From IMG/VR virus record IMGVR_UViG_3300046820_002883: DNA of 64,000 bases. One strand, given 5' to 3'. Positions 19,801 to 50,108 of this stretch are shown here, piece by piece (the stretch's first letter is position 1; every line of letters begins with the position of its first letter). The DNA comes from an uncultured virus (IMG/VR IMGVR_UViG_3300046820_002883) (taxonomy: Duplodnaviria > Heunggongvirae > Uroviricota > Caudoviricetes). The position numbers and the translations under genes are program-made. Under the pieces are notes generated by a model that saw only the letters and a list, made by a program, of their open reading frames with translations, searched no databases and was not told where the DNA came from.

Positions 19801-22800
19801 TATTGTTGGTGTTACCGTTGGGGTAATAGTTGGTGTAACACTAGTTGTTGGTGTTATAGTTGGTGTAATTGTAGGTGTAACAGTTGGAGTTACTGTTGGG
19901 GTTACAGAAGTTGTTGGAGTAACTGATGTTGTTGGTGTGATGGTCGGAGTCACTGTAGGTGTAATCGTAGGAGTTACCGTAGGTGTTACTGTTGGAGTTA
20001 CTGATGTTGTTGGAGTAATAGTCGGAGTTACCGTTGCAGTTCTGGTTGGTGTAACGGTTGGTGTGACAGTTGGTGTAATTGATGTTGTAGGTGTAATGGT
20101 AGGAGTGACCGTAGCAGTTACTGTTGGAGTAATAGTTGGAGTAACTGACGTGGTTGGTGTAATAGTAGGTGTTACCGTAGGTGTTTGGGTCGGCGTAACT
20201 GAAGTTGTTGGAGTAACCGTAGGTGTGATTGTTGGTGTAACTGTTGGAGTAACTGATGTTGTTGGTGTTATAGTAGGAGTAACCGTAGGGGTCTGAGTAG
20301 GTGTTAGTGTTGGGGTTACTGATGTTGTAGGGGTAATTGTAGGTGTAATAGTAGGGGTTACTGTTGGAGTAATTGTAGGTGTTACTGAAGTTGTTGGAGT
20401 AATGGTTGGCGTGATGGTAGGAGTGGTTGTTGGTGTAACTGATGTAGTTGGCGTGATGGTTGGAGTTACGGTTGGGGTAATGGTTGGTGTTACTGAGGTT
20501 GTAGGGGTAATGGTTGGAGTAACTGTTGGAGTAATAGTTGGCGTAACCGAAGTAGTCGGTGTAATAGTTGGTGTTACTGTTGGGGTAATAGTCGGAGTAA
20601 CAGTTGGTGTAACGGAAGTTGTTGGTGTAACGGAAGTTGTTGGCGTTATTGTAGGTGTCACCGTAGGTGTTTGAGTCGGTGTGATTGTTGGTGTAACTGA
20701 AGTAGTTGGTGTAATAGTCGGAGTAACTGTTGGGGTAACCGAAGTTGTTGGAGTTATTGTAGGTGTTACCGTTGCGGTCCTAGTTGGAGTTATAGTTGGG
20801 GTTACAGATGTAGTTGGTGTTACTGATGTAGTAGGGGTGATAGTCGGTGTTACAGTCGGTGTGATTGTAGGTGTTACTGTTGGAGTTACAGAAGTTGTAG
20901 GTGTAATTGTTGGTGTTACTGTTGGAGTTATAGTTGGTGTAACTGAGGTTGTAGGAGTAATGGTTGGGGTGATGGTAGGTGTTACTGTTGGAGTTACAGA
21001 AGTTGTAGGTGTAATTGTTGGTGTTACTGTTGGAGTTATAGTTGGTGTAACTGAGGTTGTAGGAGTAATGGTTGGGGTGATGGTAGGTGTTACAGTTGGT
21101 GTTACTGACGTGGTTGGTGTTATTGTAGGAGTAACCGTAGGTGTTTGAGTCGGTGTCAACGTTGGAGTTACTGATGTTGTAGGGGTAACGGAAGTAGTTG
21201 GAGTAATGGTAGGTGTAATTGTAGGTGTTACTGACGGTGTAATGGTTGGCGTAACCGAAGTAGTCGGTGTAATAGTTGGTGTTACTGTTGGAGTAACCGT
21301 CGGAGTTATAGATGTAGTTGGAGTTACCGTTGGAGTAATTGTAGGTGTTACTGTAGGTGTAACTGAGGTAGTCGGTGTGATTGTGGGTGTAATGGTAGGA
21401 GTAACAGTTGGAGTAACTGTTGGTGTTACAGATGTAGTTGGTGTTATTGTAGGAGTTACTGTCGGGGTAACCGTAGCAGTTCTAGTGGGGGTGATTGTAG
21501 GAGTAACAGAGGTAGTTGGAGTGATGGTCGGAGTAACTGTCGGGGTAACTGTTGGCGTAACTGTTGGAGTTACTGATGTTGTTGGAGTAATGGTTGGAGT
21601 TATAGTTGGAGTAACCGTTGGAGTAACAGATGTGGTTGGTGTTATGGTCGGAGTGATTGTTGGAGTTACCGTAGGAGTAACAGAAGTTGTAGGGGTTACA
21701 GTAGGTGTTTGAGTCGGTGTTATCGTTGGAGTTACCGAAGTTGTTGGAGTAATGGTTGGAGTTATAGTTGGAGTTACTGTTGGTGTTACTGTTGGTGTTA
21801 CGGAAGTTGTTGGTGTTGTAGTTGGAGTAATAGTCGGTGTTACTGTTGCAGTTCTAGTTGGAGTGATGGTTGGTGTGACAGAAGTTGTTGGAGTTATAGT
21901 CGGCGTTACCGTTGAAGTTATAGTTGGCGTAACTGTAGGTGTTACAGATGTAGTTGGTGTTATTGTTGGAGTAACTGTAGGTGTTACAGATGTAGTTGGT
22001 GTTATTGTTGGAGTAACTGTAGGTGTTTGAGTTGGTGTAACTGTCGGGGTGACAGAAGTTGTTGGAGTAATTGATGTAGTTGGGGTTATTGTTGGTGTAA
22101 CTGTTGCAGTTATAGTTGGGGTAATGGTCGGTGTGACAGAAGTTGTTGGTGTGATTGTAGGAGTTACTGTTGGGGTAACTGTAGGTGTTACTGAGGTAGT
22201 GGGTGTTATAGTTGGAGTAACTGTAGGTGTTACTGTCGGGGTAACTGAGGTTGTTGGTGTTATTGTAGGAGTAATAGTAGGAGTTACTGTTGGAGTTACA
22301 GATGTTGTGGGAGTAATAGTCGGTGTTACCGTAGCAGTTCTAGTTGGAGTGATTGTAGGAGTGACAGAAGTAGTAGGTGTTATAGTAGGAGTAATGGTAG
22401 GAGTTACTGTTGGTGTAACAGAAGTCGTTGGTGTGATAGTAGGAGTTACTGTCGGTGTTTGAGTCGGAGTAATTGTGGGTGTTACAGATGTAGTAGGAGT
22501 TACGGATGTTGTTGGCGTGATTGTCGGTGTAACCGTTGCAGTAACGGTAGGTGTCACCGTTGGGGTAACAGATGTTGTCGGTGTTATTGTTGCGGTAACT
22601 GTCGGCGTTACGGTTGGTGTAACAGAGGTAGTTGGAGTAATAGTTGGGGTTACAGTTGGTGTAACAGTTGGTGTAACCGAAGTTGTCGGTGTGATAGTAG
22701 GTGTTACGGTTGGAGTAACTGTAGGGGTAACGGTAGGTGTTACCGAAGTCGTAGGAGTTATTGTTGGCGTTACCGTAGCAGTTCTAGTCGGTGTTACTGT

Positions 22801-25800
22801 TGGAGTGATAGTCGGTGTTACTGATGTTGTTGGTGTAATAGTCGGAGTTACCGTTGCGGTTACGGTTGGAGTTACCGTAGGAGTAACAGATGTTGTTGGT
22901 GTAATTGTAGGGGTTACTGTAGGTGTAATTGTCGGGGTAACCGATGTAGTTGGAGTAATGGTTGGAGTAACTGTTGGTGTTTGAGTCGGTGTAACAGAGG
23001 TTGTGGGTGTGATTGTCGGTGTAACCGTTGCAGTAACGGTAGGTGTCACCGTTGGGGTAACAGATGTTGTCGGTGTAATAGTAGGAGTTACCGTTGGAGT
23101 AATAGTTGGTGTAACTGAAGTTGTTGGTGTAATAGTTGGGGTTACAGTTGGTGTGACAGTTGGTGTAACCGAAGTTGTCGGTGTGATAGTAGGTGTAACC
23201 GTTGGTGTTATGGTTGGTGTTATGGTTGGCGTAACAGAAGTAGTTGGTGTTATCGTTGGCGTAACTGTTGATGTAACTGTAGGTGTCACTGTTGGGGTAA
23301 CAGAAGTTGTGGGGGTAATTGTTGGTGTCACCGTAGGTGTTACCGTAGGTGTTACTGATGTGGTAGGTGTGATTGTAGGTGTGATTGTGGGTGTCACAGT
23401 AGGAGTAACAGATGTTGTTGGTGTAATGGTAGGGGTTACAGTAGGAGTTTGAGTCGGTGTCAACGTCGGTGTTACGGAAGTTGTTGGCGTAACTGAGGTT
23501 GTAGGAGTAATAGTCGGAGTTACCGTAGCAGTTCTAGTTGGGGTAATTGTAGGGGTTACCGATGTTGTTGGTGTTATAGTTGGAGTAACCGTTGGTGTCA
23601 CCGTTGGGGTAACACTGGTTGTTGGTGTTATAGTTGGGGTAACTGTAGGAGTAACAGTTGGAGTTACTGATGTCGTAGGAGTAACCGTTGGTGTTTGGGT
23701 AGGTGTCAACGTTGGTGTAACCGAAGTGGTTGGAGTTACCGTTGGAGTAATTGTAGGTGTTACCGTAGGTGTTACAGAAGTAGTTGGAGTTACAGTTGGT
23801 GTTATTGTCGGAGTTTGAGTCGGTGTGATGGTTGGAGTCACCGAAGTCGTTGGTGTTATAGTTGGGGTAATGGTTGGGGTTACTGTTGGGGTTCTAGTTG
23901 GAGTTACCGTTGGAGTGACAGATGTTGTGGGGGTAACTGATGTCGTTGGAGTAATGGTTGGTGTTACAGTTGCCGTAACTGTAGGTGTAATTGTTGGGGT
24001 TATAGATGTAGTTGGAGTTACAGTTGGGGTAATAGTCGGAGTAATAGTAGGCGTAACTGAAGTAGTTGGTGTTATTGTTGGTGTCACGGTTGGTGTTACC
24101 GTCGGTGTTACCGATGTTGTCGGTGTTATTGTAGGTGTTACAGTTGCCGTAACAGTAGGTGTCACAGTTGGGGTAACAGATGTAGTTGGTGTAATCGTTG
24201 GAGTAACCGTAGGTGTTTGAGTTGGTGTTACTGTTGGGGTTACACTAGTTGTTGGAGTAATTGTAGGAGTAACTGTCGGAGTTACTGTTGGTGTAACAGA
24301 AGTTGTGGGAGTAATTGTAGGTGTTACCGTAGCGGTTCTGGTTGGGGTAACTGTTGGTGTTACAGATGTGGTTGGTGTAACCGATGTTGTTGGAGTAATG
24401 GTTGGCGTGATGGTAGGAGTGGTTGTTGGTGTGACAGTTGGTGTCACAGAGGTAGTTGGAGTAATAGTAGGTGTTACCGTCGGTGTTTGAGTCGGTGTTA
24501 CTGAAGTAGTTGGTGTAATGGTAGGTGTAACTGTCGGAGTTACGGTTGGTGTGATTGAAGTAGTTGGTGTGATTGTGGGAGTTACTGTTGCGGTAACAGT
24601 GGGGGTTACTGTTGGAGTAACTGAGGTAGTTGGTGTAACTGATGTGGTAGGAGTTATAGTTGGAGTAACTGTTGCGGTTCTAGTTGGGGTAATAGTTGGG
24701 GTAACTGAGGTAGTCGGTGTGATAGTAGGTGTTACTGTAGGTGTTACCGTTGGTGTTACTGATGTTGTAGGAGTTATAGTTGGCGTAATGGTTGGTGTTA
24801 CCGTCGGTGTAACTGTAGGAGTGACACTAGTTGTCGGTGTAATTGTAGGTGTAATAGTAGGGGTTACTGTTGGAGTAATTGTAGGTGTTACTGAAGTTGT
24901 TGGAGTAATGGTTGGCGTGATGGTAGGAGTGGTTGTTGGTGTAACTGATGTAGTTGGCGTGATGGTTGGAGTTACGGTTGCAGTAACGGTAGGAGTAACA
25001 CTAGTTGTTGGAGTAACTGAGGTTGTTGGGGTAATTGTTGGTGTAATAGTTGGTGTTACAGTAGGTGTTACTGTAGGAGTTACTGATGTTGTTGGGGTTA
25101 TAGTTGGGGTGACAGAAGTAGTTGGCGTGATTGTAGGAGTAACCGTTGCCGTAACTGTAGGTGTTACTGTTGGAGTTACAGATGTTGTAGGAGTTACCGT
25201 TGGAGTAACAGATGTAGTTGGTGTTATAGTAGGAGTAACCGTAGGGGTCTGAGTAGGTGTTAGTGTTGGGGTTACTGATGTTGTAGGTGTTATAGTCGGT
25301 GTTATAGTTGGAGTTACTGTTGGTGTAACTGAGGTAGTTGGTGTAATAGTTGGAGTTACTGTTGGTGTAACTGTAGGGGTTACGGTGGGTGTTACCGATG
25401 TTGTCGGGGTTACTGATGTAGTTGGAGTTACAGTTGGTGTTATTGTCGGAGTTTGAGTCGGTGTCAACGTCGGTGTAACACTAGTTGTTGGAGTAATAGT
25501 TGGTGTTACTGTTGCAGTAACGGTAGGTGTCACCGTTGGGGTAACAGATGTTGTCGGTGTTATTGTTGGGGTAACTGTTGGTGTTACGGTTGGTGTTACG
25601 GTTGGTGTAACTGAAGTTGTTGGCGTGATGGTTGGAGTAATGGTTGGTGTTTGAGTTGGGGTAACTGAAGTTGTTGGTGTAATAGTTGGGGTCACTGTCG
25701 GTGTTACTGTTGGTGTTACTGTTGGTGTTACCGATGTAGTTGGAGTAATAGTAGGTGTAACCGTTGGGGTAACAGAGGTTGTTGGTGTAATGGTTGGTGT

Positions 25801-28800
25801 TACCGTGGCAGTTCTAGTGGGTGTAATGGTAGGTGTAATCGATGTAGTTGGAGTAACCGATGTAGTTGGAGTGATTGTCGGTGTAACGGTTGGAGTAATG
25901 GTAGGTGTAATTGTTGGTGTTACGGTTGGTGTGATTGAAGTAGTTGGCGTAATAGTCGGAGTTACTGTGGGAGTAACTGTCGCAGTTCTCGTTGGGGTAA
26001 TGGTTGGAGTAACAGAGGTTGTTGGTGTTACAGATGTTGTAGGAGTGATAGTAGGGGTGACTGTTGCGGTAACTGTCGGCGTTACGGTTGGTGTAACTGA
26101 AGTGGTTGGTGTTATCGTTGGTGTAACGGTGGGTGTGACAGTTGGTGTTACAGATGTTGTAGGAGTGATAGTAGGGGTGACTGTTGGTGTAATTGTAGGT
26201 GTAACCGAAGTTGTAGGGGTTATAGTTGGTGTAATAGTAGGAGTTATAGTTGGAGTTATAGTTGGGGTAACCGATGTAGTTGGTGTTACAGAAGTCGTTG
26301 GTGTGATAGTTGGTGTAATAGTGGGAGTTTGAGTGGGAGTGATAGTTGGTGTTACTGAAGTTGTTGGTGTAATTGTAGGAGTGATTGTAGGTGTTACAGT
26401 TGGTGTTACTGAAGTGGTTGGAGTTATTGTGGGTGTTACCGTTGCAGTTCTAGTTGGAGTTATAGTTGGGGTAACCGATGTAGTAGGAGTTACTGAAGTA
26501 GTAGGGGTAATGGTTGGAGTAATTGTGGGGGTTACAGTAGGTGTTACAGTTGGTGTTACTGAAGTGGTTGGAGTAACTGTAGGTGTCACAGTTGGAGTAA
26601 CCGATGTAGTTGGAGTCGCGGTAGGGGTAATGGTTGGAGTAATTGTGGGGGTTTGGGTTGGTGTAACCGATGTTGTTGGTGTTATAGTTGGAGTAACAGT
26701 TGCAGTAACTGTAGGTGTCACAGTTGGAGTAACCGATGTTGTTGGTGTAATGGTTGGAGTAACTGTAGGGGTTACGGTGGGTGTTAATGTTGGGGTTACT
26801 GATGTTGTAGGTGTGATGGTTGGTGTAACTGTTGCAGTAACTGTAGGTGTCACAGTTGGAGTAACACTAGTTGTTGGCGTTACCGATGTTGTTGGTGTAA
26901 TGGTTGGAGTAACTGTAGGGGTTACGGTGGGTGTTAATGTTGGGGTTACTGATGTTGTAGGTGTGATGGTTGGTGTAACTGTTGGTGTAACCGATGTAGT
27001 AGGGGTAATGGTTGGAGTAATTGTGGGGGTTCTAGTTGGTGTTATAGTTGGTGTTACAGATGTAGTAGGAGTTACGGATGTTGTTGGCGTAATTGTAGGG
27101 GTTACTGTAGGTGTTTGAGTAGGAGTTCCTGTTGGAGTTATAGAAGTGGTCGGCGTTACTGTTGGAGTGATAGTTGGTGTTACTGTGGGGGTAACTGAAG
27201 TCGTAGGAGTAATAGTTGGTGTTACTGTAGGGGTAATGGTTGGTGTTACTGAAGTAGTTGGAGTTACTGTGGGTGTGATGGTTGGGGTTATAGTTGGTGT
27301 TCTAGTTGGGGTTACTGAAGTTGTTGGTGTAACGCTAGTAGTTGGAGTAATTGTAGGAGTAACTGTAGGAGTTTGAGTCGGTGTCAACGTTGGTGTAACA
27401 CTGGTTGTTGGTGTAATGGTTGGTGTTACTGATGGCGTAATGGTCGGTGTTACCGAAGTTGTTGGGGTGATGGTTGGTGTAATAGTTGGAGTGATTGTGG
27501 GAGTGATGGTTGGTGTAACTGAAGTCGTAGGAGTTAGAGTTGGAGTTGTGGTCGGAGTAACAGAGGTTGTTGGAGTAACGGTTGGTGTGGTTGTTGGGGT
27601 TACTGTGGGAGTCCTAGTAGGAGTAACAGAGGTTGTTGGTGTCAATGTTGGTGTAACTGAAGTCGTAGGAGTTATAGTTGGGGTTACTGTTGAAGTAACA
27701 GTTGGTGTAACGGTTGGAGTTACACTAGTAGTTGGGGTTATAGTTGGTGTAATAGTAGGAGTTACTGTTGGTGTAACAGTTCTAGTTGGGGTAACTGTCG
27801 GAGTTATAGTTGCGGTAACAGTAGGAGTTACGGTTGGAGTAACTGATGTAGTTGGTGTTATAGTCGGCGTAATAGTTGGAGTAACCGTTGGGGTGATTGT
27901 GGGAGTAATTGTTGGTGTTTGCGTCATTGTTGGAGTCGATGTTGGGGTCGGACTCGGTATCATTGTATAATCAATATCACATGCAGGTGCTGGTGTTACA
28001 GTTGGTGTCGGTGTAAATGTTGGAGTTACAGAAGTTGTTGGTGTAATCGTTGGTGTTACTGTTGCGGTAAGTGTTGGTGTTACTGTAGGTGTAACAGAAG
28101 TAGTTGGAGTGATAGTAGGTGTAACCGTAGGGGTTACTGAAGTCGTTGGTGTAATAGTTGGTGTTACTGTCGGTGTCTTAGTAGGGGTGATAGTTGGTGT
28201 TATAGATGTTGTTGGCGTGATTGTAGGTGTTATAGATGTTGTTGGCGTGATTGTAGGTGTAACTGTTGCGGTAACTGTTGGTGTCACCGTTGGAGTTACT
28301 GAAGTTGTTGGTGTAATGGTAGGGGTAACTGTTGGTGTAACTGAAGTCGTAGGAGTAATGGTAGGTGTGACTGTAGCGGTTCTAGTTGGAGTAATGGTTG
28401 GGGTCACACTAGTTGTAGGGGTTACTGAAGTCGTAGGAGTGATTGTTGGTGTTATTGTCGGAGTTTGAGTCGGTGTCAATGTAGGAGTTACAGATGTGGT
28501 CGGGGTAACGGTAGGTGTAATCGTTGGTGTAACTGAAGTTGTTGGTGTAATTGTAGGAGTGATTGTTGCCGTTACAGTTGGTGTAATAGTAGGAGTAACT
28601 GAAGTTGTTGGGGTAATAGAGGTTGTTGGTGTAATCGTTGGAGTTATAGTTGGTGTAATGGTTGGTGTAACAGTAGGTGTTACCGTAGGGGTAACAGACG
28701 TTGTTGGTGTAACTGAAGTTGTTGGAGTAATTGTGGGAGTAACCGTTGCGGTAACTGTAGGTGTAATAGTAGGCGTTACAGATGTTGTTGGAGTGATTGT

Positions 28801-31539
28801 TGGGGTAATGGTAGGTGTTCTAGTGGGGGTGATTGTAGGAGTAACGGAGGTAGTTGGTGTAACAGAAGTCGTTGGCGTGATAGTAGGAGTGACTGTTGGT
28901 GTTTGAGTCGGTGTCAACGTCGGTGTTACAGATGTGGTTGGTGTTATGGTTGGGGTAATGGTAGGGGTGATAGTCGGCGTTACTGATGTAGTTGGCGTGA
29001 TGGTTGGAGTAACTGTTGCTGTTCTAGTAGGTGTAACGGTGGGTGTCACCGAAGTAGTTGGTGTAACTGATGTGGTTGGTGTTATCGTAGGAGTAACCGT
29101 CGGGGTTCTAGTAGGTGTTACAGTTGGTGTAACTGATGTGGTTGGCGTAATGGTCGGGGTAATAGTTGGAGTTACTGTTGGTGTTATACTAGTTGTTGGA
29201 GTAATAGTTGGAGTTACTGTTGCAGTAACTGTAGGAGTTACCGTAGGAGTAACTGATGTAGTTGGGGTAATGGTTGGAGTGATTGTAGGAGTAACAGAGG
29301 TTGTTGGTGTCAATGTTGGTGTTACCGTAGCAGTTCTAGTTGGAGTGATTGTAGGAGTAACAGAGGTTGTTGGTGTCAATGTTGGTGTAACTGAAGTTGT
29401 AGGAGTAACAGTTGGAGTTACTGTTGCAGTAACTGTAGGTGTAATAGTTGGTGTTACTGATGTGGTTGGTGTAACTGTAGGAGTAGTTGTGGGTGTGATA
29501 GTAGGTGTTACCGATGTAGTTGGTGTAATAGTTGGAGTAACTGTGGGTGTTCTAGTTGGAGTAATGGTTGGTGTAACCGAAGTGGTTGGAGTTATAGTTG
29601 GTGTAACTGTGGGAGTCACTGATGTGGTTGGTGTAATTGTAGGAGTAATGGTTGGTGTTACTGTAGCAGTTCTAGTTGGAGTGACAGAAGTTGTTGGAGT
29701 TACCGTAGGTGTTACCGAAGTGGTTGGGGTTGTTGTTGGTGTAACTGTGGGAGTTTGAGTCGGTGTTACCGTTGGAGTAACAGAAGTAGTTGGTGTTATA
29801 GTTGGAGTAATGGTGGGAGTCACTGTGGGTGTTACAGATGTTGTAGGTGTAATAGTTGGTGTAACCGTAGCGGTAACGGTAGGTGTTACTGTTGGGGTAA
29901 CCGATGTAGTTGGGGTAATAGTTGGTGTAACCGTAGGTGTTATAGTAGGACTTATCGTTGGTGTAACAGAAGTTGTTGGAGTGATAGTAGGAGTTATCGT
30001 TGCAGTAACTGTTGGTGTAACTGTGGGAGTCACTGAAGTTGTAGGTGTAATTGTAGGTGTAATTGTAGGTGTTTGAGTCGGTGTTACCGTTGGTGTGATT
30101 GTAGGTGTTACACTAGTTGTGGGGGTAATAGTAGGTGTTACCGTTGCAGTTCTAGTTGGTGTAATAGTAGGAGTAACTGAAGTTGTTGGTGTAATGGTCG
30201 GAGTTACGGTAGGAGTTACTGTAGGGGTCACAGATGTTGTAGGTGTAATAGTTGGAGTCACTGTTGCAGTAACGGTAGGAGTGACTGTTGGTGTAACAGA
30301 GGTAGTAGGAGTAACTGAAGTAGTCGGAGTAACCGTAGGTGTTTGAGTCGGTGTTACCGTTGGGGTGGTAGTGGGAGTAACTGAAGTGGTTGGTGTTATC
30401 GTAGGTGTTTGAGTCGGTGTAACCGTTGGGGTAACAGAAGTTGTTGGTGTGATTGTTGGGGTAACCGTAGGTGTGACTGTAGAGGTCACAGTAGGAGTTA
30501 CACTGGTAGTTGGGGTTACAGATGTTGTTGGCGTGGTAGTAGGTGTTGTTGTTGGAGTGACTGTTGGAGTAACCGATGTGGTTGGTGTAATTGTGGGTGT
30601 TATAGTTGGTGTTTGTGTAGGTGTAATTGATGTAGTGGGAGTTACAGTTGGTGTTTCACTTGGGGTTAATGTGGGGGTCACCGAGGTGGTGGGTGTTACG
30701 GTAGGTGTTTCACTTGGAGTAAGAGTTGGTGTTACGGATGTAGTTGGAGTAATGGTTGGGGTTATCGTAGGTGTTACTGTAGGAGTTACAGATGTGGTGG
30801 GTGTTACCGTTGGTGTTTCACTTGGAGTAAGAGTTGGTGTTACTGATGTAGTTGGTGTAATAGTTGGGGTAATTGTAGGTGTTACTGATGTGGTTGGTGT
30901 AATTGTAGGAGTAACTGTTGGTGTCTCACTTGGTGTTAATGTAGGAGTAACTGAAGTTGTGGGAGTAATAGTTGGAGTGATAGTTGGGGTAACAGTAGGA
31001 GTCTCACTTGGTGTTTGAGACGGGGTGACTGTTGGAGTCATGGTCGGTGTTACTGCAGGTGTCTCACTTGGTGTAATTGTGGGTGTAATTGTGGGTGTTG
31101 ATGTTGGTGTTACTGTTGGAGTGGTTGTTGGAGTGGTTGTTGGGGTAATAGTAGGAGTGTTTGTAACCGTAATAGTAGGGGTATTTGTTGGTGTGATAGT
31201 AAGTGTAACTGTAGGTGTTGGGGTAGTCGTTACTGTCGGTGTCAATGATGGTGTTCTGGTAACACTTGGAGTAAGAGTTGGTGTTGTGGTCGGAGTAACA
31301 GACGGACTTGGTACGATAGGTGAACTTGTAGGTGTTGGGGTAGGACAAACAATACCAACTTCACATGTTTTATTTAAGTTAACAAAGTAAACAGAGTAAG
31401 TTCCGATATAATAATCGGTCTCATAATAGTACGGCATTGTGACAGTACCTAAGTTAATTGTACCACCCGAACATGGGTAGAAAACAATTGTCGCTGTTTG
31501 ACCATCATAATTACCCGTATTTATTTTAACTAATGCCAT
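16858..31539 (-). CDS. Giant mucin-like Pro/Thr repeat protein (4893 aa) with small Cys-containing N-terminal domain and Cys-rich C-terminal modules
   Basis: Uninterrupted 14.7-kb ORF; ~4400 residues of TPT(V/I/Q/R/L) and TPTTSV units with heavily varied synonymous codons. Confidence 0.9.
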   Translation of the reverse strand: MALVKINTGNYDGQTATIVFYPCSGGTINLGTVTMPYYYETDYYIGTYSVYFVNLNKTCEVGIVCPTPTPTSSPIVPSPSVTPTTTPTLTPSVTRTPSLTPTVTTTPTPTVTLTITPTNTPTITVTNTPTITPTTTPTTTPTVTPTSTPTITPTITPSETPAVTPTMTPTVTPSQTPSETPTVTPTITPTITPTTSVTPTLTPSETPTVTPTITPTTSVTPTITPTITPTTSVTPTLTPSETPTVTPTTSVTPTVTPTITPTITPTTSVTPTLTPSETPTVTPTTSVTPTLTPSETPTVTPTTSITPTQTPTITPTITPTTSVTPTVTPTTTPTTTPTTSVTPTTSVTPTVTSTVTPTVTPTITPTTSVTPTVTPTQTPTITPTTSVTPTTTPTVTPTQTPTVTPTTSVTPTTSVTPTVTPTVTATVTPTITPTTSVTPTVTPTVTPTITPTTSVTPTITPTRTATVTPTITPTTSVTPTITPTVTPTQTPTITPTITPTTSVTPTVTPTVTATITPTITPTTSVTPTISPTITPTVTPTITPTTSVTPTVTPTVTATVTPTITPTTSVTPTVTPTITPTITPTTSVTPTVTPTQTPTVTPTTTPTTSVTPTVTPTTSVTPTRTATVTPTITPTITPTTSVTPTVTPTITPTTSVTPTITPTRTPTVTPTITPTTSVTPTITPTTTPTVTPTTSVTPTITPTVTATVTPTVTPTTSVTPTLTPTTSVTPTITPTRTATVTPTLTPTTSVTPTITPTITPTTSVTPTVTPTVTATVTPTITPTTSITPTVTPTITPTITPTTSVTPTVTPTRTPTVTPTITPTTSVTPTTSVTPTVTPTRTATVTPTITPTTSVTPTITPTITPTITPTTSVTPTLTPTQTPTVTPTITPTTSVTPTTSVTPTITPTRTPTITPTITPTTSVTPTITPTVTATVTPTITPTTSVTPTTSVTPTVTPTVTPTITPTITPTITPTTSITPTTSVTPTITPTVTATITPTITPTTSVTPTITPTVTPTTSVTPTLTPTQTPTITPTITPTTSVTPTTSVTPTITPTRTATVTPTITPTTSVTPTVTPTITPTTSVTPTVTPTVTATVTPTITPTTSITPTITPTTSITPTITPTKTPTVTPTITPTTSVTPTVTPTITPTTSVTPTVTPTLTATVTPTITPTTSVTPTFTPTPTVTPAPACDIDYTMIPSPTPTSTPTMTQTPTITPTITPTVTPTITPTITPTTSVTPTVTPTVTATITPTVTPTRTVTPTVTPTITPTITPTTSVTPTVTPTVTSTVTPTITPTTSVTPTLTPTTSVTPTRTPTVTPTTTPTVTPTTSVTPTTTPTLTPTTSVTPTITPTITPTITPTITPTTSVTPTITPSVTPTITPTTSVTPTLTPTQTPTVTPTITPTTSVTPTTSVTPTRTPTITPTITPTVTPTTSVTPTITPTVTPTITPTTSVTPTVTPTITPTVTPTTSITPTGTPTQTPTVTPTITPTTSVTPTTSVTPTITPTRTPTITPTITPTTSVTPTVTPTITPTTSVTPTLTPTVTPTVTPTITPTTSVTPTTSVTPTVTPTVTATVTPTITPTTSVTPTLTPTVTPTVTPTITPTTSVTPTVTPTVTATVTPTITPTTSVTPTQTPTITPTITPTATPTTSVTPTVTPTVTPTTSVTPTVTPTVTPTITPTITPTTSVTPTTSVTPTITPTRTATVTPTITPTTSVTPTVTPTITPTITPTTSVTPTITPTQTPTITPTITPTTSVTPTTSVTPTITPTITPTITPTITPTTSVTPTITPTVTPTITPTTSVTPTVTPTVTPTITPTTSVTPTVTPTVTATVTPTITPTTSVTPTTSVTPTITPTRTATVTPTVTPTITPTTSITPTVTPTITPTITPTVTPTITPTTSVTPTTSITPTITPTRTATVTPTITPTTSVTPTVTPTITPTTSVTPTVTPTVTPTVTPTITPTTSVTPTQTPTITPTITPTTSVTPTVTPTVTPTVTPTITPTTSVTPTVTPTVTATVTPTITPTTSVTPTLTPTQTPTITPTVTPTTSVTPTTSVTPTVTPTVTPTVTPTITPTTSVTPTVTPTITPTITPTTSVTPTLTPTQTPTVTPTITPTTSVTPTVTPTTSVTPTVTPTVTATVTPTITPTTSVTPTITPTTSVTPTVTPTVTPTITPTITPTTSVTPTTSVTPTVTATVTPTITPTTSVTPTTTPTITPTITPTTSVTPTITPTVTPTITPTITPTTSVTPTVTPTVTPTITPTITPTTSVTPTVTPTVTPTITPTTSVTPTITPTRTATVTPTITPTTSVTPTTSVTPTVTPTVTATVTPTITPTTSITPTVTPTVTPTITPTTSVTPTQTPTVTPTITPTTSVTPTVTPTTTPTITPTITPTTSVTPTTSVTPTVTPTRTATVTPTITPTTSVTPTVTPTVTPTITPTTSVTPTVTPTQTPTVTPTITPTTSVTPTVTPTVTATVTPTITPTTSVTPTVTPTVTPTITPTTSVTPTITPTITPTVTPTTSITPTITPTVTATVTPTITPTTSVTPTTSVTPTVTPTRTPTVTPTITPTITPTTSVTPTITPTQTPTITPTVTPTTSVTPTVTPTITPTVTPTTSVTPTLTPTQTPTVTPTTSVTPTVTPTVTPTITPTTSVTPTVTPTVTPTITPTTSVTPTITPTRTATVTPTITPTTSVTPTTSVTPTLTPTQTPTVTPTITPTTSVTPTVTPTITPTITPTTSVTPTVTPTVTPTITPTTSVTPTVTPTVTSTVTPTITPTTSVTPTITPTITPTVTPTITPTTSVTPTVTPTVTPTITPTTSVTPTITPTVTPTITPTTSVTPTVTPTVTATVTPTITPTTSVTPTQTPTVTPTITPTTSVTPTITPTVTPTITPTTSVTPTVTPTVTATVTPTITPTTSVTPTITPTVTPTRTATVTPTITPTTSVTPTVTPTVTPTVTPTITPTTSVTPTVTPTVTPTITPTTSVTPTVTPTVTATITPTTSVTPTVTPTVTATVTPTITPTTSVTPTTSVTPTITPTQTPTVTPTITPTTSVTPTVTPTITPTITPTTSVTPTITPTRTATVTPTITPTTSVTPTVTPTITPTITPTTSVTPTVTPTVTPTITPTTSVTPTVTPTVTPTITPTTSVTPTITPTITATVTPTITPTTSITPTTSVTPTVTPTQTPTVTPTITPTTSVTPTVTPTITPTTSVTPTVTPTITSTVTPTITPTTSVTPTITPTRTATVTPTITPTTTPTTSVTPTVTPTVTPTITPTITPTTSVTPTITPTQTPTVTPTTSVTPTVTPTITPTITPTTSVTPTVTPTITPTITPTTSVTPTVTPTVTPTVTPTITPTTSVTPTITPTRTATVTPTVTPTITPTTSVTPTVTPTVTPTITPTITPTTSVTPTVTPTITPTVTPTTSITPTVTPTVTPTITPTTSVTPTITPSVTPTITPTITPTTSVTPTTSVTPTLTPTQTPTVTPTITPTTSVTPTVTPTITPTITPTTSVTPTITPTVTPTITPTTSVTPTVTPTITPTITPTTSVTPTITPTVTPTITPTTSVTPTVTPTITPTVTPTITPTTSVTPTTSVTPTITPTRTATVTPTITPTTSVTPTVTPTITPTTSVTPTITPTQTPTVTPTITPTTSVTPTTSVTPTVTPTITPTVTPTITPTTSVTPTITPTVTPTITPTTSVTPTITPTVTPTITPTTSVTPTTTPTITPTITPTTSVTPTITPTVTPTITPTITPTTSVTPTLTPTQTPTVTPTITPTTSVTPTVTPTITPTVTPTTSVTPTQTPTVTPTITPTTSVTPTITPTVTATVTPTITPTTSITPTVTPTVTPTRTATVTPTITPTTSVTPTVTPTVTPTITPTVTPTITPTTSVTPTTSVTPTVTPTVTPTITPTITPTTSVTPTITPTVTPTITPTTSVTPTITPTITPTVTPTITPTITPTTSVTPTVTPTVTPTITPTITPTTSVTPTVTPTITATVTPTITPTTSVTPTTSVTPTVTPTVTPTVTPTITPTITPTTSVTPTITPTRTATVTPTVTPTITPTTSVTPTVTPTVTPTITPTITPTTSVTPTVTPTITPTITPTITPTTSVTPTVTPTITPTITPTITPTTSVTPTVTPTITPTITPTTSVTPTITPTITPTVTPTITPTTSVTPTITPSVTPTITPTVTPTITPTTSVTPTVTPTITPTVTPTVTPTITPTTSVTPTITPTITPTVTPTITPTITPTTSVTPTITPSVTPTRTATVTPTITPTTSVTPTLTPTQTPTITPTITPTITPTTSVTPTITPTVTPTITPTVTPTITPTTSVTPTITPTVTPTITPTVTPTITPTTSVTPTITPTVTPTVTPTITPTITPTTSVTPTITPTRTPTITPTITPTITPTTSVTPTVTPTITPTITPTITPTNSVTPTITPTITPTGTPAVTPSVTPTITPTVTPTITPTITPTTSVTPTITPTVTPTRTPTITPTITPTTSVTPTVTPTTVYVSIRMVSCCSPDGFEFNVTQADFNAIIANPSFAYVINGFCYSNATVILFNSFLTVYTPTGTFATCNECVVARPCPTPTPTSTPTITPTRTITPTITPTITPTITPTITPTITPTRTITPTVTPTITPTITPTITPTTSVTPTPTRTPGGTPAVTQSVTPTRTPTPTLTPTVTPTITPTITRTITPTVTPTVTPTVTPTITRTITPTPTPTPTRTVASTPPPSESPQPTSTPTNTPTPTPTPSIPGCVCKKYRIDSITPNVQSIDYQTCCDPSSSVIITPEIIAATGYRLDFCACVGSVNVNGGNAAVSLVGDCNPDANQCNCWEINVDPADAAASSDGQVHAFYQCCQSTWENEALPPGTWRKCAIQFFGLYIIVGGNYVVAPNSTASQVGNCGTECNPTYGGCDC
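18085..31345 (-). repeat. Degenerate 12/18-nt coding tandem repeat array (VTPT, ITPT, TPTTSV)
   Basis: + strand reads GTNGGNGT-type units; local exact duplications, e.g. 108-bp x2 at 20867-21082 and 78-bp period from 18509. Confidence 0.97.
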
Positions 31540-47189: not shown

Positions 47190-47212
47190 AAAAATCGGAA
47201 ATACCGATTTTT
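47190..47212. terminator. Short hairpin, probable terminator after the GNAT gene
   Basis: AAAAATCGG-aaata-CCGATTTTT inverted repeat. Confidence 0.6.
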
Positions 47213-47543
47213 AAAGTGTTTTTATTAATTCTTTAATTCTGTTTAGTTCTTCATTTAAATCCACATCTTTATGTATAAATTTAGAACCTAAATCAGTTTT
47301 TAATGATGGTCTGTAAGTTGATTCAGGGTGTAGTTCTTTCATTTTTTTGATTAACATTGAACCAAATCCCTCTCTTCTTCTATTTGGTCTAACCAGAATA
47401 TCACTAACGGTAATTTCGTTATCAAAAATTACAAAACTAACATACCCAACTATTTCGTCGTCTTCGTAAACTCCGAGTTCATAATTGTTTTGACCATCGT
47501 AATAGTCTAAATGTTCTTCTTCAAACCTTATTTTTCCCATCAT
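47211..47543 (-). CDS. GNAT-family acetyltransferase with C-terminal LNEELNRIKELI tail
   Basis: IVGYVSF, ILVRPNRRREGFGSMLI (acetyl-CoA-binding motif A), TDLGSKF. Confidence 0.85.
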   Translation of the reverse strand: MMGKIRFEEEHLDYYDGQNNYELGVYEDDEIVGYVSFVIFDNEITVSDILVRPNRRREGFGSMLIKKMKELHPESTYRPSLKTDLGSKFIHKDVDLNEELNRIKELIKTL

Positions 47544-47557
47544 TAATAAATATGCAT

Positions 47558-47585
47558 AAAAAAAATCCCGACATATGCCGGGATT
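47558..47585 (-). terminator. Rho-independent terminator downstream of nrdA
   Basis: AAUCCCGGC-AUAU-GUCGGGAUU followed by U-run on the - strand. Confidence 0.88.
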
Positions 47586-47592
47586 GTATTGT

Positions 47593-47670
47593 GTTTAATT
47601 TTCGCCCCCTGTATAATTAAACTAAGTAGATGCTTGAGGTCGGCCTCGAACCATTAAGGGAGCCACCCAC
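47593..47670 (-). ncRNA. Candidate structured (pseudoknotted) RNA in the nrdA 3' UTR
   Basis: Stems GUGGGUG/CAUCUAC, GAGG/CCUC, GUUUAAUU/AAUUAAAC and loop-loop pairing GCUCCCU/AGGGGGC; G-U wobbles only on the - strand. Confidence 0.5.
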
Positions 47671-47672
47671 GA

Positions 47673-50108
47673 TTATGAACCACAACCCTCACATTCAAAT
47701 GGAGAATCTGTTGGTTTTGACGATAACGCCATTTCTACCAATTTCTCTTCCTCTTGATTAACGTTTTGGGTATATGTAGGGTTTACTACTTCTTGTGATT
47801 CGTTTGTGGGTTTAGATGCGGACATATCAATTCCTAATCCTTTTATTGGGTCCACCGCTGACCTTGTTCTTAGATAGTACATACCGGTTTTTAACCCGAG
47901 TTTCCATCCATAGATGTGTGCCGCAAGTACTTTCGTTTTATTTGCATTATCAATGAACAAATTCAATGATTGGGATTGGTCAATATAAATTGACCTATTC
48001 GCAGCCATGGTTAAGATTCTTTTTTGTGACATCTCCCAAACTGTTTTGTAAACTTCTTTTACTTCCACAGGAATTTCAGGGATGTTTTGAACTGAACCGT
48101 TCTCCATGATTAATTTTTTCTTTAACTCATCCGACCATAAACCTCTTTCAAGTAATTCATTTACCAAGTGTTTATTGATAACAATAAATTCACCTCCTAA
48201 TGTTCTTCTTGAGTAAAGATTTGATGTGAATGGTTCAAATGCTTCGTTGTTACCAAGAATCTGTGCAGTGGATGCTGTTGGCATTGGTGCCACTAATAAT
48301 GAGTTTCTAACACCATGTTTAACAACCTCTTTTCTTAATGATTTCCAATCCCATCTTCCACTTGTGTCCTTATCGGTTTTACCCCATAATTCATATTGGA
48401 ATTTACCTTCTGACAATGGAGAACCTTCAAATGAAGAATACGCCCCATGTTCAATTGCCAAATCTTTTGATGATGTTAATGCTGCAAAATAGATTGTTTC
48501 AAAAATTTCAGTTTGTAGTCTATCTGCCTCTTCACTTTCAAATGGTAATTTAACCATACAAAATACATCCGCCAAACCTTGGACTCCTAACCCAACTGGT
48601 CTATGTTTCATGTTTGAACGTTTTGTTTCCTCAGTTGGATAAAAGTTCAAATCAATAACGTTGTTTAGGTTCTTAACTACTTGGTATACGTATTCGTAAA
48701 GTAACGCATGACTAAATTCGCCGTCAAGAATATATTTTGGTAATGCAATCGATGCTAAGTTACAAACCGCTTGTTCATCGGGACTTGAATACTCAATAAT
48801 CTCCGTACATAGGTTTGAAGATTTAATTGTACCTAAGTTCTTTTGGTTTGATTTGTAATTCGCAGCATCCTTATACAACATATATGGAGTGCCTGTTTCA
48901 ATCTGTGAAGTTAAAATCGCATCCATCAACTTTCTTGCTTTCACAACTTTTCTTGCTCGACCTTCTTTCTCGTATCTTTCGTACAATTCAGTAAATCCTT
49001 GAGTGAATGAATATGGGTCATCGTAAGCATCGGATAAACCCGGTGCCTCGTCAGGGGAAAATAATGACCAATCACCATCTTCCTCAACTCGTTTCATGAA
49101 TAGACTTGGTGTCCACATTGCTAAGAATAAATCTCTCGCTCTCATTTCTTCTTTACCGTGATTTTTTCTTAAATCGATAAATTCAAAAACATCGGCGTGC
49201 CATGGTTCAAGATATATTGCGAAGGAACCTTTTCTTTTTCCTCCTTGGTTAATCCAACGAGCAACTTCATTATAAGTTTTCATCATCGGTAAAAGACCGT
49301 CGGATTCTCCACCTGTTCCTTTAATATAAGAACCTTTCGCTCTTACATCATGAACATGAAGACCGATACCTCCAGCCCATTTAGAGATTTTAGCAACGTC
49401 TTTGATTGTGTCAAACAAACCATCGATGTCATCTCCTTTATTACCAATTAAAAAACATGAAGACATTTGTGGTCTACGTGTACCTGCATTGAATAATGTT
49501 GGTGTTGCATGTGTATAGAAGTGTTGAGACAGGTCATCATAAATTCTTAATGCCATATCCAAATCTCCATTACAGATACCCACCGCAACTCTCATGTACA
49601 TATACTGAGGTCTCTCAACAATACGTTTACCAATCTTTAAAAGATATGAACGTTCTAATGTTTTAAAACCAAAGTAATCGAAATCCAAATCTCTTTCTTG
49701 TCTAATTGCACCATCCAAAACTTCTCTGTTTTGGACCACGAATTGGTAGACTTCATCTGCAATTAATGAAGACTCAACTCCCGTTTTTGGTTCGTTAAAA
49801 GAGTATAACTCTTTAATACATTGAGAGAATTTTTTAGGTGTGGTCTTATGTAAATTAGACACGGCCAATCTACCGGCCAATTTTGCGTAGTCAGAATGTG
49901 ATGTTACCAACGATGCCGCAGTTTCTGCCGCAAGTGTGTCTAATTCGGACGTTGAAATACCGTCATAGATACCCTGTGTTACCTTTAAAGTAACTAATGT
50001 TGGGTCAATGTATTCTAAGTTTAAATCATCACAGAAGTGTTGAATTCTTCGTGTGATTTTGTCATATCTCATTTCTTCTAATGAGCCGTCTCTTTTTCTT
50101 ACTTTCAT
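47673..50108 (-). CDS. nrdA: Class Ia ribonucleoside-diphosphate reductase alpha subunit with ATP cone
   Basis: VRKRDG ATP cone, ATPTLFNAG, SSCFL, SNLCTEI, APMPTASTAQ, KTGMYYLR, C-terminal CEGC. Confidence 0.98.
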   Translation of the reverse strand: MKVRKRDGSLEEMRYDKITRRIQHFCDDLNLEYIDPTLVTLKVTQGIYDGISTSELDTLAAETAASLVTSHSDYAKLAGRLAVSNLHKTTPKKFSQCIKELYSFNEPKTGVESSLIADEVYQFVVQNREVLDGAIRQERDLDFDYFGFKTLERSYLLKIGKRIVERPQYMYMRVAVGICNGDLDMALRIYDDLSQHFYTHATPTLFNAGTRRPQMSSCFLIGNKGDDIDGLFDTIKDVAKISKWAGGIGLHVHDVRAKGSYIKGTGGESDGLLPMMKTYNEVARWINQGGKRKGSFAIYLEPWHADVFEFIDLRKNHGKEEMRARDLFLAMWTPSLFMKRVEEDGDWSLFSPDEAPGLSDAYDDPYSFTQGFTELYERYEKEGRARKVVKARKLMDAILTSQIETGTPYMLYKDAANYKSNQKNLGTIKSSNLCTEIIEYSSPDEQAVCNLASIALPKYILDGEFSHALLYEYVYQVVKNLNNVIDLNFYPTEETKRSNMKHRPVGLGVQGLADVFCMVKLPFESEEADRLQTEIFETIYFAALTSSKDLAIEHGAYSSFEGSPLSEGKFQYELWGKTDKDTSGRWDWKSLRKEVVKHGVRNSLLVAPMPTASTAQILGNNEAFEPFTSNLYSRRTLGGEFIVINKHLVNELLERGLWSDELKKKLIMENGSVQNIPEIPVEVKEVYKTVWEMSQKRILTMAANRSIYIDQSQSLNLFIDNANKTKVLAAHIYGWKLGLKTGMYYLRTRSAVDPIKGLGIDMSASKPTNESQEVVNPTYTQNVNQEEEKLVEMALSSKPTDSPFECEGCGS

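What the first reader, a model, noticed from the sequence alone, without database searches (positions are those of the whole stretch)
47593..47672. Compact pseudoknotted RNA squeezed between the nrdA stop codon and its terminator
Seen (- strand): starting 2 nt after UAA, P1 GUGGGUG(47670-64)/CAUCUAC(47632-26) encloses GCUCCCU(47663-57) and a GAGG-CCGA-CCUC hairpin. P3 GUUUAAUU(47622-15)/AAUUAAAC(47600-593) presents AGGGGGC(47610-04), which is complementary to GCUCCCU. A separate terminator follows. The stretch is GC-rich in otherwise AT-rich spacers, and wobble pairs favour the - strand. Inference: riboswitch-like or ribozyme-like topology, or an mRNA-stabilising or processed ncRNA. I could not match it to hammerhead, twister, pistol or HDV cores by eye.
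Basis: partly seen in the sequence, partly recalled or inferred. Interest (0 to 1): 0.7.

Follow-up and report, generated by a model that had tools for sequence, protein, structure and literature searches.

The report
Portable phage pseudoknot RNA after nrdA
The small folded RNA behind this phage's ribonucleotide-reductase gene is real and belongs to a widespread, uncatalogued family of knotted RNAs that phages also place in front of, between or inside their tRNA and tmRNA genes, so it is a portable RNA module rather than a reductase-specific switch.

Summary
P1, the P2 hairpin, P3 and the loop-to-junction pseudoknot lie at the stated coordinates on the minus strand, 2 nt after the nrdA stop and 7 nt before an intrinsic terminator. 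In 42 distinct copies behind related phage nrdA genes, 21 of 27 pairs show compensatory changes. That includes 6 of 7 pseudoknot pairs, which were not part of the model used for the alignment. G-U pairs outnumber A-C 90 to 28, so the RNA is the nrdA-sense strand. No Rfam 15 family matches.

The element is not nrdA-specific. The same core follows two other reductase types and an unrelated gene in a phage with no reductase. In a second architecture (outer helix P0 plus hairpin P4 instead of the P3 clamp) it sits right after Bacteroidota-type promoters ahead of phage tmRNA or tRNA arrays, between tRNAs, and inside tmRNAs. A model built only from that second type scores the window copy at 61 bits.

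No terminator-competing pairing was found (0 of 31 loci), which argues against a classical riboswitch. My best guess is a put-like, cis-acting antitermination RNA (about 0.3). Rivals are a processed free small RNA or aptamer, a nuclease-resistant cap, and a new ribozyme. Function is untested.

The parts
47673..50108 (-). nrdA (class Ia ribonucleotide reductase alpha, 811 aa; stop UAA at 47675-47673)
   Evidence: Pfam Ribonuc_red_lgC E 1e-203, Ribonuc_red_lgN and ATP-cone; ORF list
47593..47672 (-). Whole pseudoknot RNA motif, type N (P3-clamp form)
   Evidence: Model R1 hit 47590-47674, 69.4 bits, E 2e-10. Model R2, built from type S copies only, hit 47595-47676, 61.2 bits, E 9e-14
47664..47670 (-). 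P1 5' strand GUGGGUG
   Evidence: Sequence. P1 is 98.5% paired over 42 distinct copies, with 2 pairs changed on both sides
47657..47663 (-). Pseudoknot 5' strand GCUCCCU, directly continuing P1
   Evidence: 6 of 7 pairs compensatory; found independently by RNAalifold
47648..47656 (-). Junction UAAUGGUUC (family consensus UAAYRGU)
   Evidence: Conserved columns in alignments A1 and A3
47636..47647 (-). P2 hairpin GAGG-CCGA-CCUC. Variable, and dispensable in some relatives
   Evidence: 6 of 6 pairs compensatory in A2. Replaced by AT-rich loops, nearly deleted, or enlarged in L008-L024, L075, L079, L045, L058 and L063
47633..47635 (-). Junction AAG between P2 and P1
   Evidence: Sequence; 'AG' is invariant in 45 type S copies
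47626..47632 (-). P1 3' strand CAUCUAC
47615..47622 (-). P3 5' strand GUUUAAUU (the clamp). It takes the sequence position of hairpin P4 and the pairing role of P0 in type S copies
   Evidence: 7 of 7 P3 pairs compensatory; comparison with A3
47611..47614 (-). Conserved loop AUAC 5' of the pseudoknot strand
   Evidence: Invariant AUAC in 45 type S copies, though fixed by the search pattern. Near-invariant in the nrdA set, which was not selected on it
47604..47610 (-). Pseudoknot 3' strand AGGGGGC
47601..47603 (-). Conserved GAA (family GAAA or GAAUA) linking the pseudoknot to P3
47593..47600 (-). P3 3' strand AAUUAAAC
47556..47585 (-). Intrinsic terminator (9-bp stem, 4-nt loop, U run) ending the nrdB-nrdA unit
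   Evidence: Terminator scan. A like hairpin plus T run lies 4-27 nt after the motif in 73 of 80 pattern-retrieved loci
47211..47543 (-). Downstream co-oriented GNAT acetyltransferase gene, followed by a second terminator (47212-47190) and baseplate genes gp25 and J
   Evidence: Pfam; terminator scan

Best explanation
SHOWN. Window 47593-47672 (minus strand) encodes an autonomously folding RNA of about 80 nt. P1 continues directly into one strand of a 7-bp pseudoknot. The other pseudoknot strand sits between the conserved stretches AUAC and GAA(A). A further helix (P3 here) pairs the strand after GAA with the segment right after P1, so P3, P1 and the pseudoknot can stack. It is one member of a large, uncatalogued family carried by uncultured phages, many of them with Bacteroidota-type promoters. 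The family comes in two connectivities. Type N has the P3 clamp and lies after a stop codon and before a terminator. Type S has an outer helix P0 plus hairpin P4 and lies at the start of tmRNA or tRNA transcripts, between tRNAs, or inside tmRNA.

INFERRED (about 0.3). The module works in cis on the RNA polymerase that has just made it, like the HK022 put RNAs and Tn916 canT. Once it emerges it would make the elongation complex resistant to hairpin-dependent pausing and termination. In the window, transcription of nrdB-nrdA would then run through the terminators at 47585-47564 and 47212-47190 into the co-oriented GNAT and baseplate genes. At tRNA and tmRNA operons it would carry the polymerase through these highly structured genes and internal terminators.
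For: Structure and family
- Covariation supports the fold.
- An independent type S model hits the window copy.
- There is one copy per phage record in 10 records of 6-324 kb.

Placement expected of a cis antiterminator
- An intrinsic terminator lies 4-27 nt downstream in 73 of 80 nrdA-type loci and in the window, followed by co-oriented genes.
- In 44 of 80 type S loci a TAnnTTTG box lies 12-18 nt before the GGGUG core, so the motif is the first thing transcribed. The box meaning comes from a passage of PMC7366714.
- In L393 the motif heads an array of 13 tRNAs that holds an internal terminator-like hairpin. In L391 the order is motif, tmRNA, terminator, co-oriented genes.
- put RNAs are about 70 nt. 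putL lies just after its promoter and putR about 270 nt after its own. They contain a triplex and need no protein (passages of PMC9378689). canT is a cis-acting processive RNA antiterminator (abstract of PMC11658703).

Other points
- The core sequence is almost unchanged between AT-rich and GC-rich phages. This fits a conserved partner such as RNA polymerase.
- A position inside a tmRNA is compatible with action on the polymerase.
- One RNA-library contig of a relative (X18, 226 nt, 9 differences) bridges the nrdA end, the motif, the terminator and the GNAT start. This is a weak hint only, because DNA in the library is not excluded.
Against: - No functional test was possible.
- There is no sequence or fold homology to put.
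- 13 of 80 nrdA relatives lack the motif yet keep the same terminator and downstream region. The motif is therefore not required for expression of the downstream genes.
- A sub-lineage (L007-L024) carries a decayed version.
- Every context is also compatible with a processed free RNA.
- A tmRNA gene of about 400 nt hardly needs processive antitermination by itself.
- Earlier notes of this scan reached a similar idea, but they are not independent evidence.
Confidence: 0.3

Rival explanations
1. Free small RNA. The fold is the functional unit: an aptamer or sponge for a small molecule, or a decoy or binding platform for a host or phage protein. The contexts merely supply its ends. These would be a transcription start plus RNase P cleavage at the following tRNA or tmRNA, tRNA processing on both sides, or, in the window, a 3'-UTR-derived RNA that shares the nrdA terminator.
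For: The motif starts at the predicted transcription start and lies 17-29 nt before a tRNA or tmRNA 5' end in 42 of 80 loci. It lies 3-21 nt after and 12-15 nt before tRNAs in 3 loci. The core is highly conserved with many invariant unpaired bases. There is one copy per genome. It can be lost without other change.
Against: Copies inside tmRNA (7 loci by ARAGORN plus L279 by Rfam) would not be released. No 5' processing signal is evident in the window. No co-varying partner gene was found or searched for. No ligand can be named.
Confidence: 0.25
2. Nuclease-resistant structural cap. A very stable stacked or triplex pseudoknot blocks exonucleases and so stabilises whatever RNA it is attached to. 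In the window this would be the nrdBA message, protected up to its stop codon.
For: It lies 0-9 nt after stop codons in 71 reductase-linked loci. It takes the place of pseudoknot PK2 inside phage tmRNAs. It is portable and optional. P2 and P4 are peripheral and variable.
Against: A terminator hairpin already protects the 3' end in the window. At promoter-proximal sites nothing lies upstream to protect, and RNase P would remove the leader. Mere stability does not explain near-invariant sequence across AT-rich and GC-rich phages.
Confidence: 0.15
3. A new class of self-cleaving ribozyme that processes phage transcripts. It would cut the terminator off nrdA mRNA, trim tRNA and tmRNA precursors, or make two-piece tmRNA.
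For: The fold is compact and pseudoknotted, with about 20 conserved unpaired or invariant bases. It occurs in phages beside tRNAs, like theta and HDV-like ribozymes (passages of PMC10879173). Natural helix permutation is known from other structured RNAs (passage of PMC10085705). The topology is a permuted analogue of pistol: a hairpin loop pairs with the strand next to a helix that encloses a variable hairpin (review PMC6154101).
Against: No Rfam ribozyme model matches. The junctions around P2, which correspond to the pistol cleavage junction, vary from about 6 to more than 50 nt and P2 can be lost. The HDV hallmarks L3 and P1.1 cannot be formed (reading). A cut inside tmRNA would be risky.
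Confidence: 0.12
4. One reading: an nrdA-linked riboswitch that senses a nucleotide and controls the terminator or nrdA mRNA.
For: 77 of 78 genuine, untruncated pattern-1 loci follow a reductase operon. The layout is aptamer-like fold plus terminator.
Against: The reductase link is explained by synteny within one phage lineage. The same core occurs in a complete phage with no reductase and mostly at tmRNA and tRNA genes. No terminator-competing pairing was found in 0 of 31 loci, z between -1.5 and +1.6.
Confidence: 0.03

Closest known systems
HK022 putL/putR RNAs and Tn916 canT (factor-independent, cis-acting processive antiterminator RNAs)
   Same: Size is about 70-85 nt. The element belongs to a phage or mobile element. 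It lies either directly after a promoter or after a first gene and before a terminator, followed by co-oriented genes. No dedicated protein gene travels with it. Put stem I contains a groove triplex, and here a GAAA strand must cross P1 (passages of PMC9378689; abstract of PMC11658703; placements).
   Different: There is no sequence similarity. Put is two stem-loops without a pseudoknot, while this is a pseudoknot with three or four helices. Activity on RNA polymerase is untested. It also occurs inside tmRNA.
Pistol self-cleaving ribozyme
   Same: A hairpin loop forms a 6-7-bp pseudoknot with the strand that directly follows a helix, and that helix encloses a variable hairpin. It is associated with phages (review PMC6154101).
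   Different: The order of elements is permuted. The hairpin loop carries 4-5 extra conserved bases on each side. There is no G-U junction of fixed length. The Rfam pistol model gives no hit. Cleavage is untested.
HDV-like / theta ribozymes
   Same: Topology is nested double pseudoknot-like in the variants with a local hairpin (L210, L273 and type S). It is adjacent to phage tRNAs. A conserved C precedes the 3' pseudoknot strand (passages of PMC10879173).
   Different: No 3-bp P3 with L3 and no P1.1 can be drawn. Long variable junctions occur where HDV has none. No Rfam HDV-type hit was found.
tmRNA pseudoknot PK2
   Same: In 7 loci by ARAGORN and 1 by Rfam the motif lies at the PK2 position, about 16 nt after the tag stop codon.
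   Different: The same module also exists outside tmRNA, with its own conserved sequence. It is not part of the Rfam tmRNA consensus and aligns there as an insertion.

Membership tests
Uncatalogued portable phage pseudoknot RNA (defined here; types N and S) | P1 continuing into the pseudoknot strand, with the partner strand flanked by AUAC and GAA(A) | tested here: met
   Window sequence; covariation
Uncatalogued portable phage pseudoknot RNA (defined here; types N and S) | Significant score against a model built without the window's own lineage | tested here: met
   R2 was built from 45 type S copies and hits the window at 61.2 bits, E 9e-14. Caveat: the pattern that fetched those copies was derived from group A nrdA copies
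Uncatalogued portable phage pseudoknot RNA (defined here; types N and S) | A helix stacked on the outer end of P1 and formed by the strand after GAAA (P0 or P3) | tested here: met
   P3: 7 of 7 pairs compensatory. P0: 8 of 8. The stacking itself is inferred
Any Rfam 15 family (4227 models) | Score at or near the gathering threshold | tested here: not met
   Only chance hits far below threshold over the motif, in the window, 7 nrdA-type loci, 10 type S loci and L285 alone
Transcriptional riboswitch (aptamer plus terminator platform) | Mutually exclusive pairing between aptamer and terminator | tested here: not met
   Duplex energies of the motif with either terminator arm do not differ from shuffles in 31 of 31 loci
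Transcriptional riboswitch (aptamer plus terminator platform) | Ligand binding | not testable with these tools
   Needs in-line probing or ITC
Pistol ribozyme | Ten conserved nucleotides and a G-U junction of fixed length between P3 and P2 | tested here: not met
   The corresponding junction region varies in length and P2 can be lost. No Rfam hit. Features taken from review PMC6154101
HDV-like / theta ribozyme | P3 with L3, P1.1 and a catalytic C at the first J4/2 position | tested here: not met
   Threading by eye fails: P1.1 and L3 cannot form. Only the C before the 3' pseudoknot strand is present. No Rfam hit
put-like processive antiterminator RNA | Position between a promoter and terminators, co-oriented with downstream genes | tested here: met
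put-like processive antiterminator RNA | Suppression of termination in cis through binding to RNA polymerase | not testable with these tools
   Needs transcription assays
put-like processive antiterminator RNA | Homology to put (two stem-loops, shared sequence) | tested here: not met
   The fold differs: a pseudoknot rather than two stem-loops. No put sequence was compared. The put description comes from PMC9378689

The most novel reading that the evidence does not exclude
The family is a new class of protein-independent RNA that reprograms RNA polymerase (or, alternatively, a new self-cleaving ribozyme class). Phages of several bacterial phyla would paste it wherever a transcript must be carried on or cut: at the head of tRNA and tmRNA operons, inside tmRNA, and behind early or middle genes such as nrdA. 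Its two natural connectivities (P0 or P3) would keep one three-dimensional core.
Probability: 0.4. Interest if true: 0.85.

Novelty: new variant of a known kind. Interest (0 to 1): 0.72.

Why it matters
If the family acts on RNA polymerase, it would be only the third kind of factor-independent antiterminator RNA. It would also be the first for Bacteroidota-type transcription, and it would give a compact, portable part for controlling read-through.

If it is a ribozyme or an aptamer, it is a new class. Over a hundred natural variants and a natural helix permutation are already in hand to guide biochemistry.

Either way, it shows that the spacer after a phage nrdA gene, the leaders of phage tmRNA and tRNA operons and an internal tmRNA domain share one module. 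That bears directly on why large phages carry their own tRNA and tmRNA sets. The family is absent from Rfam 15, so genome annotation currently misses it.

Tried and rejected
- **Single-sequence folding.** Both strands gave z -0.34 and +0.04. This is uninformative because the pseudoknot is not modelled.
- **tRNA scan of the window.** None found.
- **Own genome.** None is held.
- **Repeats in the window.** No second copy of the motif.
- **Genome contigs pattern scan.** 61 hits, about the chance number. Model R1 finds none real; the best is 20 bits, E 0.18.
- **R2 over Bacteroidota genomes.** 0 hits in 2 MAGs and in 151 genomes of the phylum. This is a weak negative: only 30 candidates were scored per genome and there was no positive control.
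- **BLAST against 50,697 phage records.** The window motif finds only the uncultured 636-kb phage LR756504.1. A type S copy finds no match at E up to 1.
- **Tenacibaculum phage pT24**, the nearest isolate by nrdA DNA, has a terminator only and no motif.
- **RNA libraries.** Contigs of three runs cover the nrdA end and the motif only down to 47632, 47620 and 47606. Depth is 2-5 and these are single short contigs, so the parts without cover and the contig ends say nothing.
- **Stop-codon read-through or small-ORF reading.** The frames behind the stop are not conserved and the indels are not multiples of 3.
- **DNA-level element.** Rejected by the G-U excess on one strand.
- **HDV threading and pistol permutation.** See membership tests.
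- **Literature.** Five full-text searches and term look-ups in PMC5737381, PMC10085705 and the preprint 10.64898/2026.09.22.753630 found no description of this motif. Supplements of those papers were not opened and could list it.
- **Earlier scan notes by place and by window sequence.** Nothing found.

Full report
**1. The observation**

On the minus strand the window reads UAA (47675-47673), UC, then:
- P1 GUGGGUG (47670-47664)
- GCUCCCU (47663-47657)
- UAAUGGUUC
- the hairpin GAGG-CCGA-CCUC (47647-47636)
- AAG
- CAUCUAC (47632-47626)
- UUA
- GUUUAAUU (47622-47615)
- AUAC
- AGGGGGC (47610-47604)
- GAA
- AAUUAAAC (47600-47593)
- 7 nt of spacer
- a 9-bp terminator hairpin with a U run (47585-47556)

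The upstream ORF is a class Ia NrdA with an ATP-cone, preceded by NrdB. Downstream on the same strand lie a small GNAT gene, a second terminator, gp25 and baseplate J. The motif has 46% G+C, against 36% for the window. A nested single-sequence fold is no better than shuffles, so significance had to come from comparison.

**2. Conservation and covariation behind nrdA**

A search of IMG/VR with the NrdA protein returned 80 loci at 82-100% identity, out of 622 confirmed relatives. Reading the DNA behind each stop codon showed the motif in most of them, with different helix sequences.

A covariance model R1 was built from 40 distinct copies. It contained P1, P2 and P3 only. R1 finds exactly one hit in the window (47590-47674, 69 bits) and one in each of 66 of the 80 loci, always right behind nrdA. 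Of the rest, 13 loci go straight from stop to terminator and one locus ends at the stop.

On the 42 distinct aligned rows:
- 89.6% of cells pair, against 78.7% in shuffles (0 of 500 reach it) and 29-49% with slid partners.
- 21 of 27 pairs change on both sides.
- The pseudoknot, which the model did not contain, has 6 of 7 compensatory pairs and 90.8% pairing.

RNAalifold on the unfitted MAFFT alignment chose the pseudoknot helix by itself, with 5 of 5 pairs compensatory. G-U pairs outnumber A-C 90 to 28 overall, and 35 to 1 in P1. The RNA is therefore the nrdA-sense strand.

P2 is peripheral. It is AT-rich and unpaired in L007-L024, nearly absent in L075, L079 and L080, and replaced by a larger insert in L045, L058 and L063.

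**3. Not a known family**

Rfam 15 scans at permissive E-values gave only chance hits over the motif. These covered the window region, 7 diverse nrdA-type loci, 10 type S loci and one type S copy alone. Five full-text literature searches and look-ups in three candidate papers found no description. Supplements were not opened.

**4. The motif is not tied to nrdA**

The contexts were:

| Context | Loci |
|---|---|
| After NrdA-type C-termini | 64 |
| After a different reductase alpha ending ...CVSCEA (Pfam Ribonuc_red_lgC) | 7 |
| After a small DUF5522 ORF that follows a class II-like reductase and runs into P1 and the pseudoknot strand | 6 |
| After an unrelated 218-aa protein | 1 |
| Truncated locus | 1 |
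| Chance match | 1 |

The unrelated case lies in a complete 310-kb phage with terminal repeats. That phage has no Ribonuc_red_lgC match at all, and its gp25 lies 170 kb away.

BLAST of the window motif against GenBank phages found one record, the 636-kb uncultured phage LR756504.1. There the motif lies about 50 nt behind a phage tmRNA that follows two tRNAs. It scores 32 bits with R1 and 70 bits with R2.

**5. A second architecture and the main habitat**

A second, narrower pattern gave 115 stretches, 80 held with DNA. Most have an outer helix P0 of about 8 bp, P1 GGGUG/CAUCY, the same pseudoknot, UAAYRGU, a 5-bp P2 with a CYGA loop, AG, a small hairpin P4, UAUAC and GAAA.

On 45 distinct copies, 95.6% of cells pair, against 84.2% in shuffles (0 of 500). 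P0 has 8 of 8 compensatory pairs, P2 has 4 of 5 and P4 has 3 of 3. P1 and the pseudoknot were largely fixed by the pattern, so they say nothing here.

In this type S the strand after GAAA pairs with the segment before P1. In the window's type N it pairs with the segment after P1. Either way a helix abuts the outer end of P1, so this is a natural non-circular permutation.

A model R2 built from type S copies only scores the window copy at 61 bits, E 9e-14.

Contexts of the 80 loci:

| Context | Loci |
|---|---|
| TAnnTTTG box, then motif, then tmRNA about 27 nt later | 33 |
| Box, motif, tRNA 15-17 nt later | 9 |
| Box, motif, other | 2 |
| Inside a tmRNA by ARAGORN | 7 |
| Between tRNAs | 3 |
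| Before tRNAs without a box | 3 |
| After long ORFs (8 of them nrdA) | 12 |
| Other | 11 |

Notes on this table:
- The tmRNA calls rest on a 5'-end heuristic, backed by Rfam in L285 and L309 and by ARAGORN in L309, L310 and L347.
- Inside tmRNA, the motif sits at the PK2 position about 16 nt after the tag stop. L279, counted here under 'other', is an eighth such case by Rfam.
- The 'other' class includes GC-rich phages and the megaphage-like contig.
- TAnnTTTG is the -7 box of the Bacteroidetes primary sigma factor (passage of PMC7366714).

In L393 the motif heads an array of 13 tRNAs. In L391 the order is motif, tmRNA, terminator, co-oriented genes.

The motif was not found in 185,579 species-representative prokaryote genomes by the first pattern. 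Nor was it found in 151 sampled Bacteroidota genomes with R2, which is a weak negative.

**6. What it does**

*Shown:* a conserved, autonomously folding pseudoknot module that phages insert in non-coding parts of very different transcripts. There is one copy per genome, and it can be lost by deletion.

*A classical riboswitch is unlikely.* Neither terminator arm is more complementary to the motif than to shuffles in any of 31 loci, and the reductase link dissolves outside one phage lineage.

*Preferred reading (about 0.3): a put-like cis-acting antiterminator.* It accounts for the two dominant placements:
- directly after a promoter at operons full of terminator-like structure;
- after a gene and 4-27 nt before an intrinsic terminator, followed by co-oriented genes (73 of 80 loci).

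It also accounts for the near-identical core in AT-rich and GC-rich phages and for tolerance of a position inside tmRNA. Put and canT provide the precedent.

Against it: 13 of 80 relatives keep the terminator without the motif, and nothing was tested.

*Rivals:*
- A free processed small RNA, aptamer or decoy (0.25).
- A nuclease-resistant cap (0.15).
- A new ribozyme (0.12). The topology resembles a permuted pistol and, in the variants with a local hairpin, an HDV-like nested double pseudoknot, but defining features of both are missing.

RNA-library contigs show only that the nrdA end and part of the motif occur in three metatranscriptome runs. One relative's contig bridges the terminator. That is a weak hint.

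**7. Earlier notes of this scan**

These notes describe what appears to be the same or a closely related module in other genomes: a free small RNA, between tRNAs, grafted into tmRNA, and leading tRNA arrays. They also propose a put-like role. I found the tmRNA and tRNA contexts myself before reading them. Their intron and T7-boxA claims were not checked. They are leads, not support.

**8. Verdict**

The window copy is the reductase-linked, P3-clamp form of a widespread, uncatalogued portable phage RNA. Its mechanism remains open.

Noticed in passing
window 16858-31539 (-): A single 4,893-aa ORF is made almost entirely of degenerate tandem repeats. Periods are multiples of 6, mostly 54-204 nt, with 62-94% matches. 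On the coding strand it reads as Thr/Pro/Val-rich repeats. It is probably a giant fibre-like or mucin-like virion protein.
   Followed up: partly
L209:1304-1549 and L208:1566-1763 (-): A small cysteine-rich DUF5522 ORF (65-81 aa, motif GCRHCPY) follows a class II-like reductase in related phages. Its last codons run into P1 and the pseudoknot strand of the motif.
   Followed up: partly
L288:475-942; also L300, L303, L323, L324, L327, L349, L279: Phage tmRNAs of about 468 nt carry the motif at the PK2 position. ARAGORN predicts a short tag, APVPLMGL*. L309 has a tmRNA with a 21-residue tag.
   Followed up: partly
L273:2332-2407 (LR756504.1): ARAGORN calls a tRNA with a four-base anticodon (tcta) next to a tRNA-Met and a tmRNA in the 636-kb phage. 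It may be a frameshift-suppressor-like tRNA or a mis-call.
   Followed up: no
L044 and L048 versus L071 (behind the nrdA stop): The motif-less loci look like clean deletions of the motif between short direct repeats (AGAC). The terminator and downstream spacer stay unchanged.
   Followed up: no
window 47190-47212: A second hairpin with T runs on both strands lies between the GNAT gene and gp25. Two terminators therefore separate nrdA from the baseplate genes.
   Followed up: no
L285:675-700 (-) and many type S loci: A conserved box GTTCTTTGAAA(A/T)AT lies between the motif and the tmRNA 5' end. It also lies upstream of the promoter in the tRNA-Glu loci. Its meaning is unknown.
   Followed up: no
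L290, L316, L320, L332 and L275, L348, L343: GC-rich phage contigs carry the same core inside longer helices (P0 up to 12-13 bp). In L290 it is embedded in a larger hairpin that ends in a terminator-like stem. The family therefore reaches beyond Bacteroidota phages.
   Followed up: no
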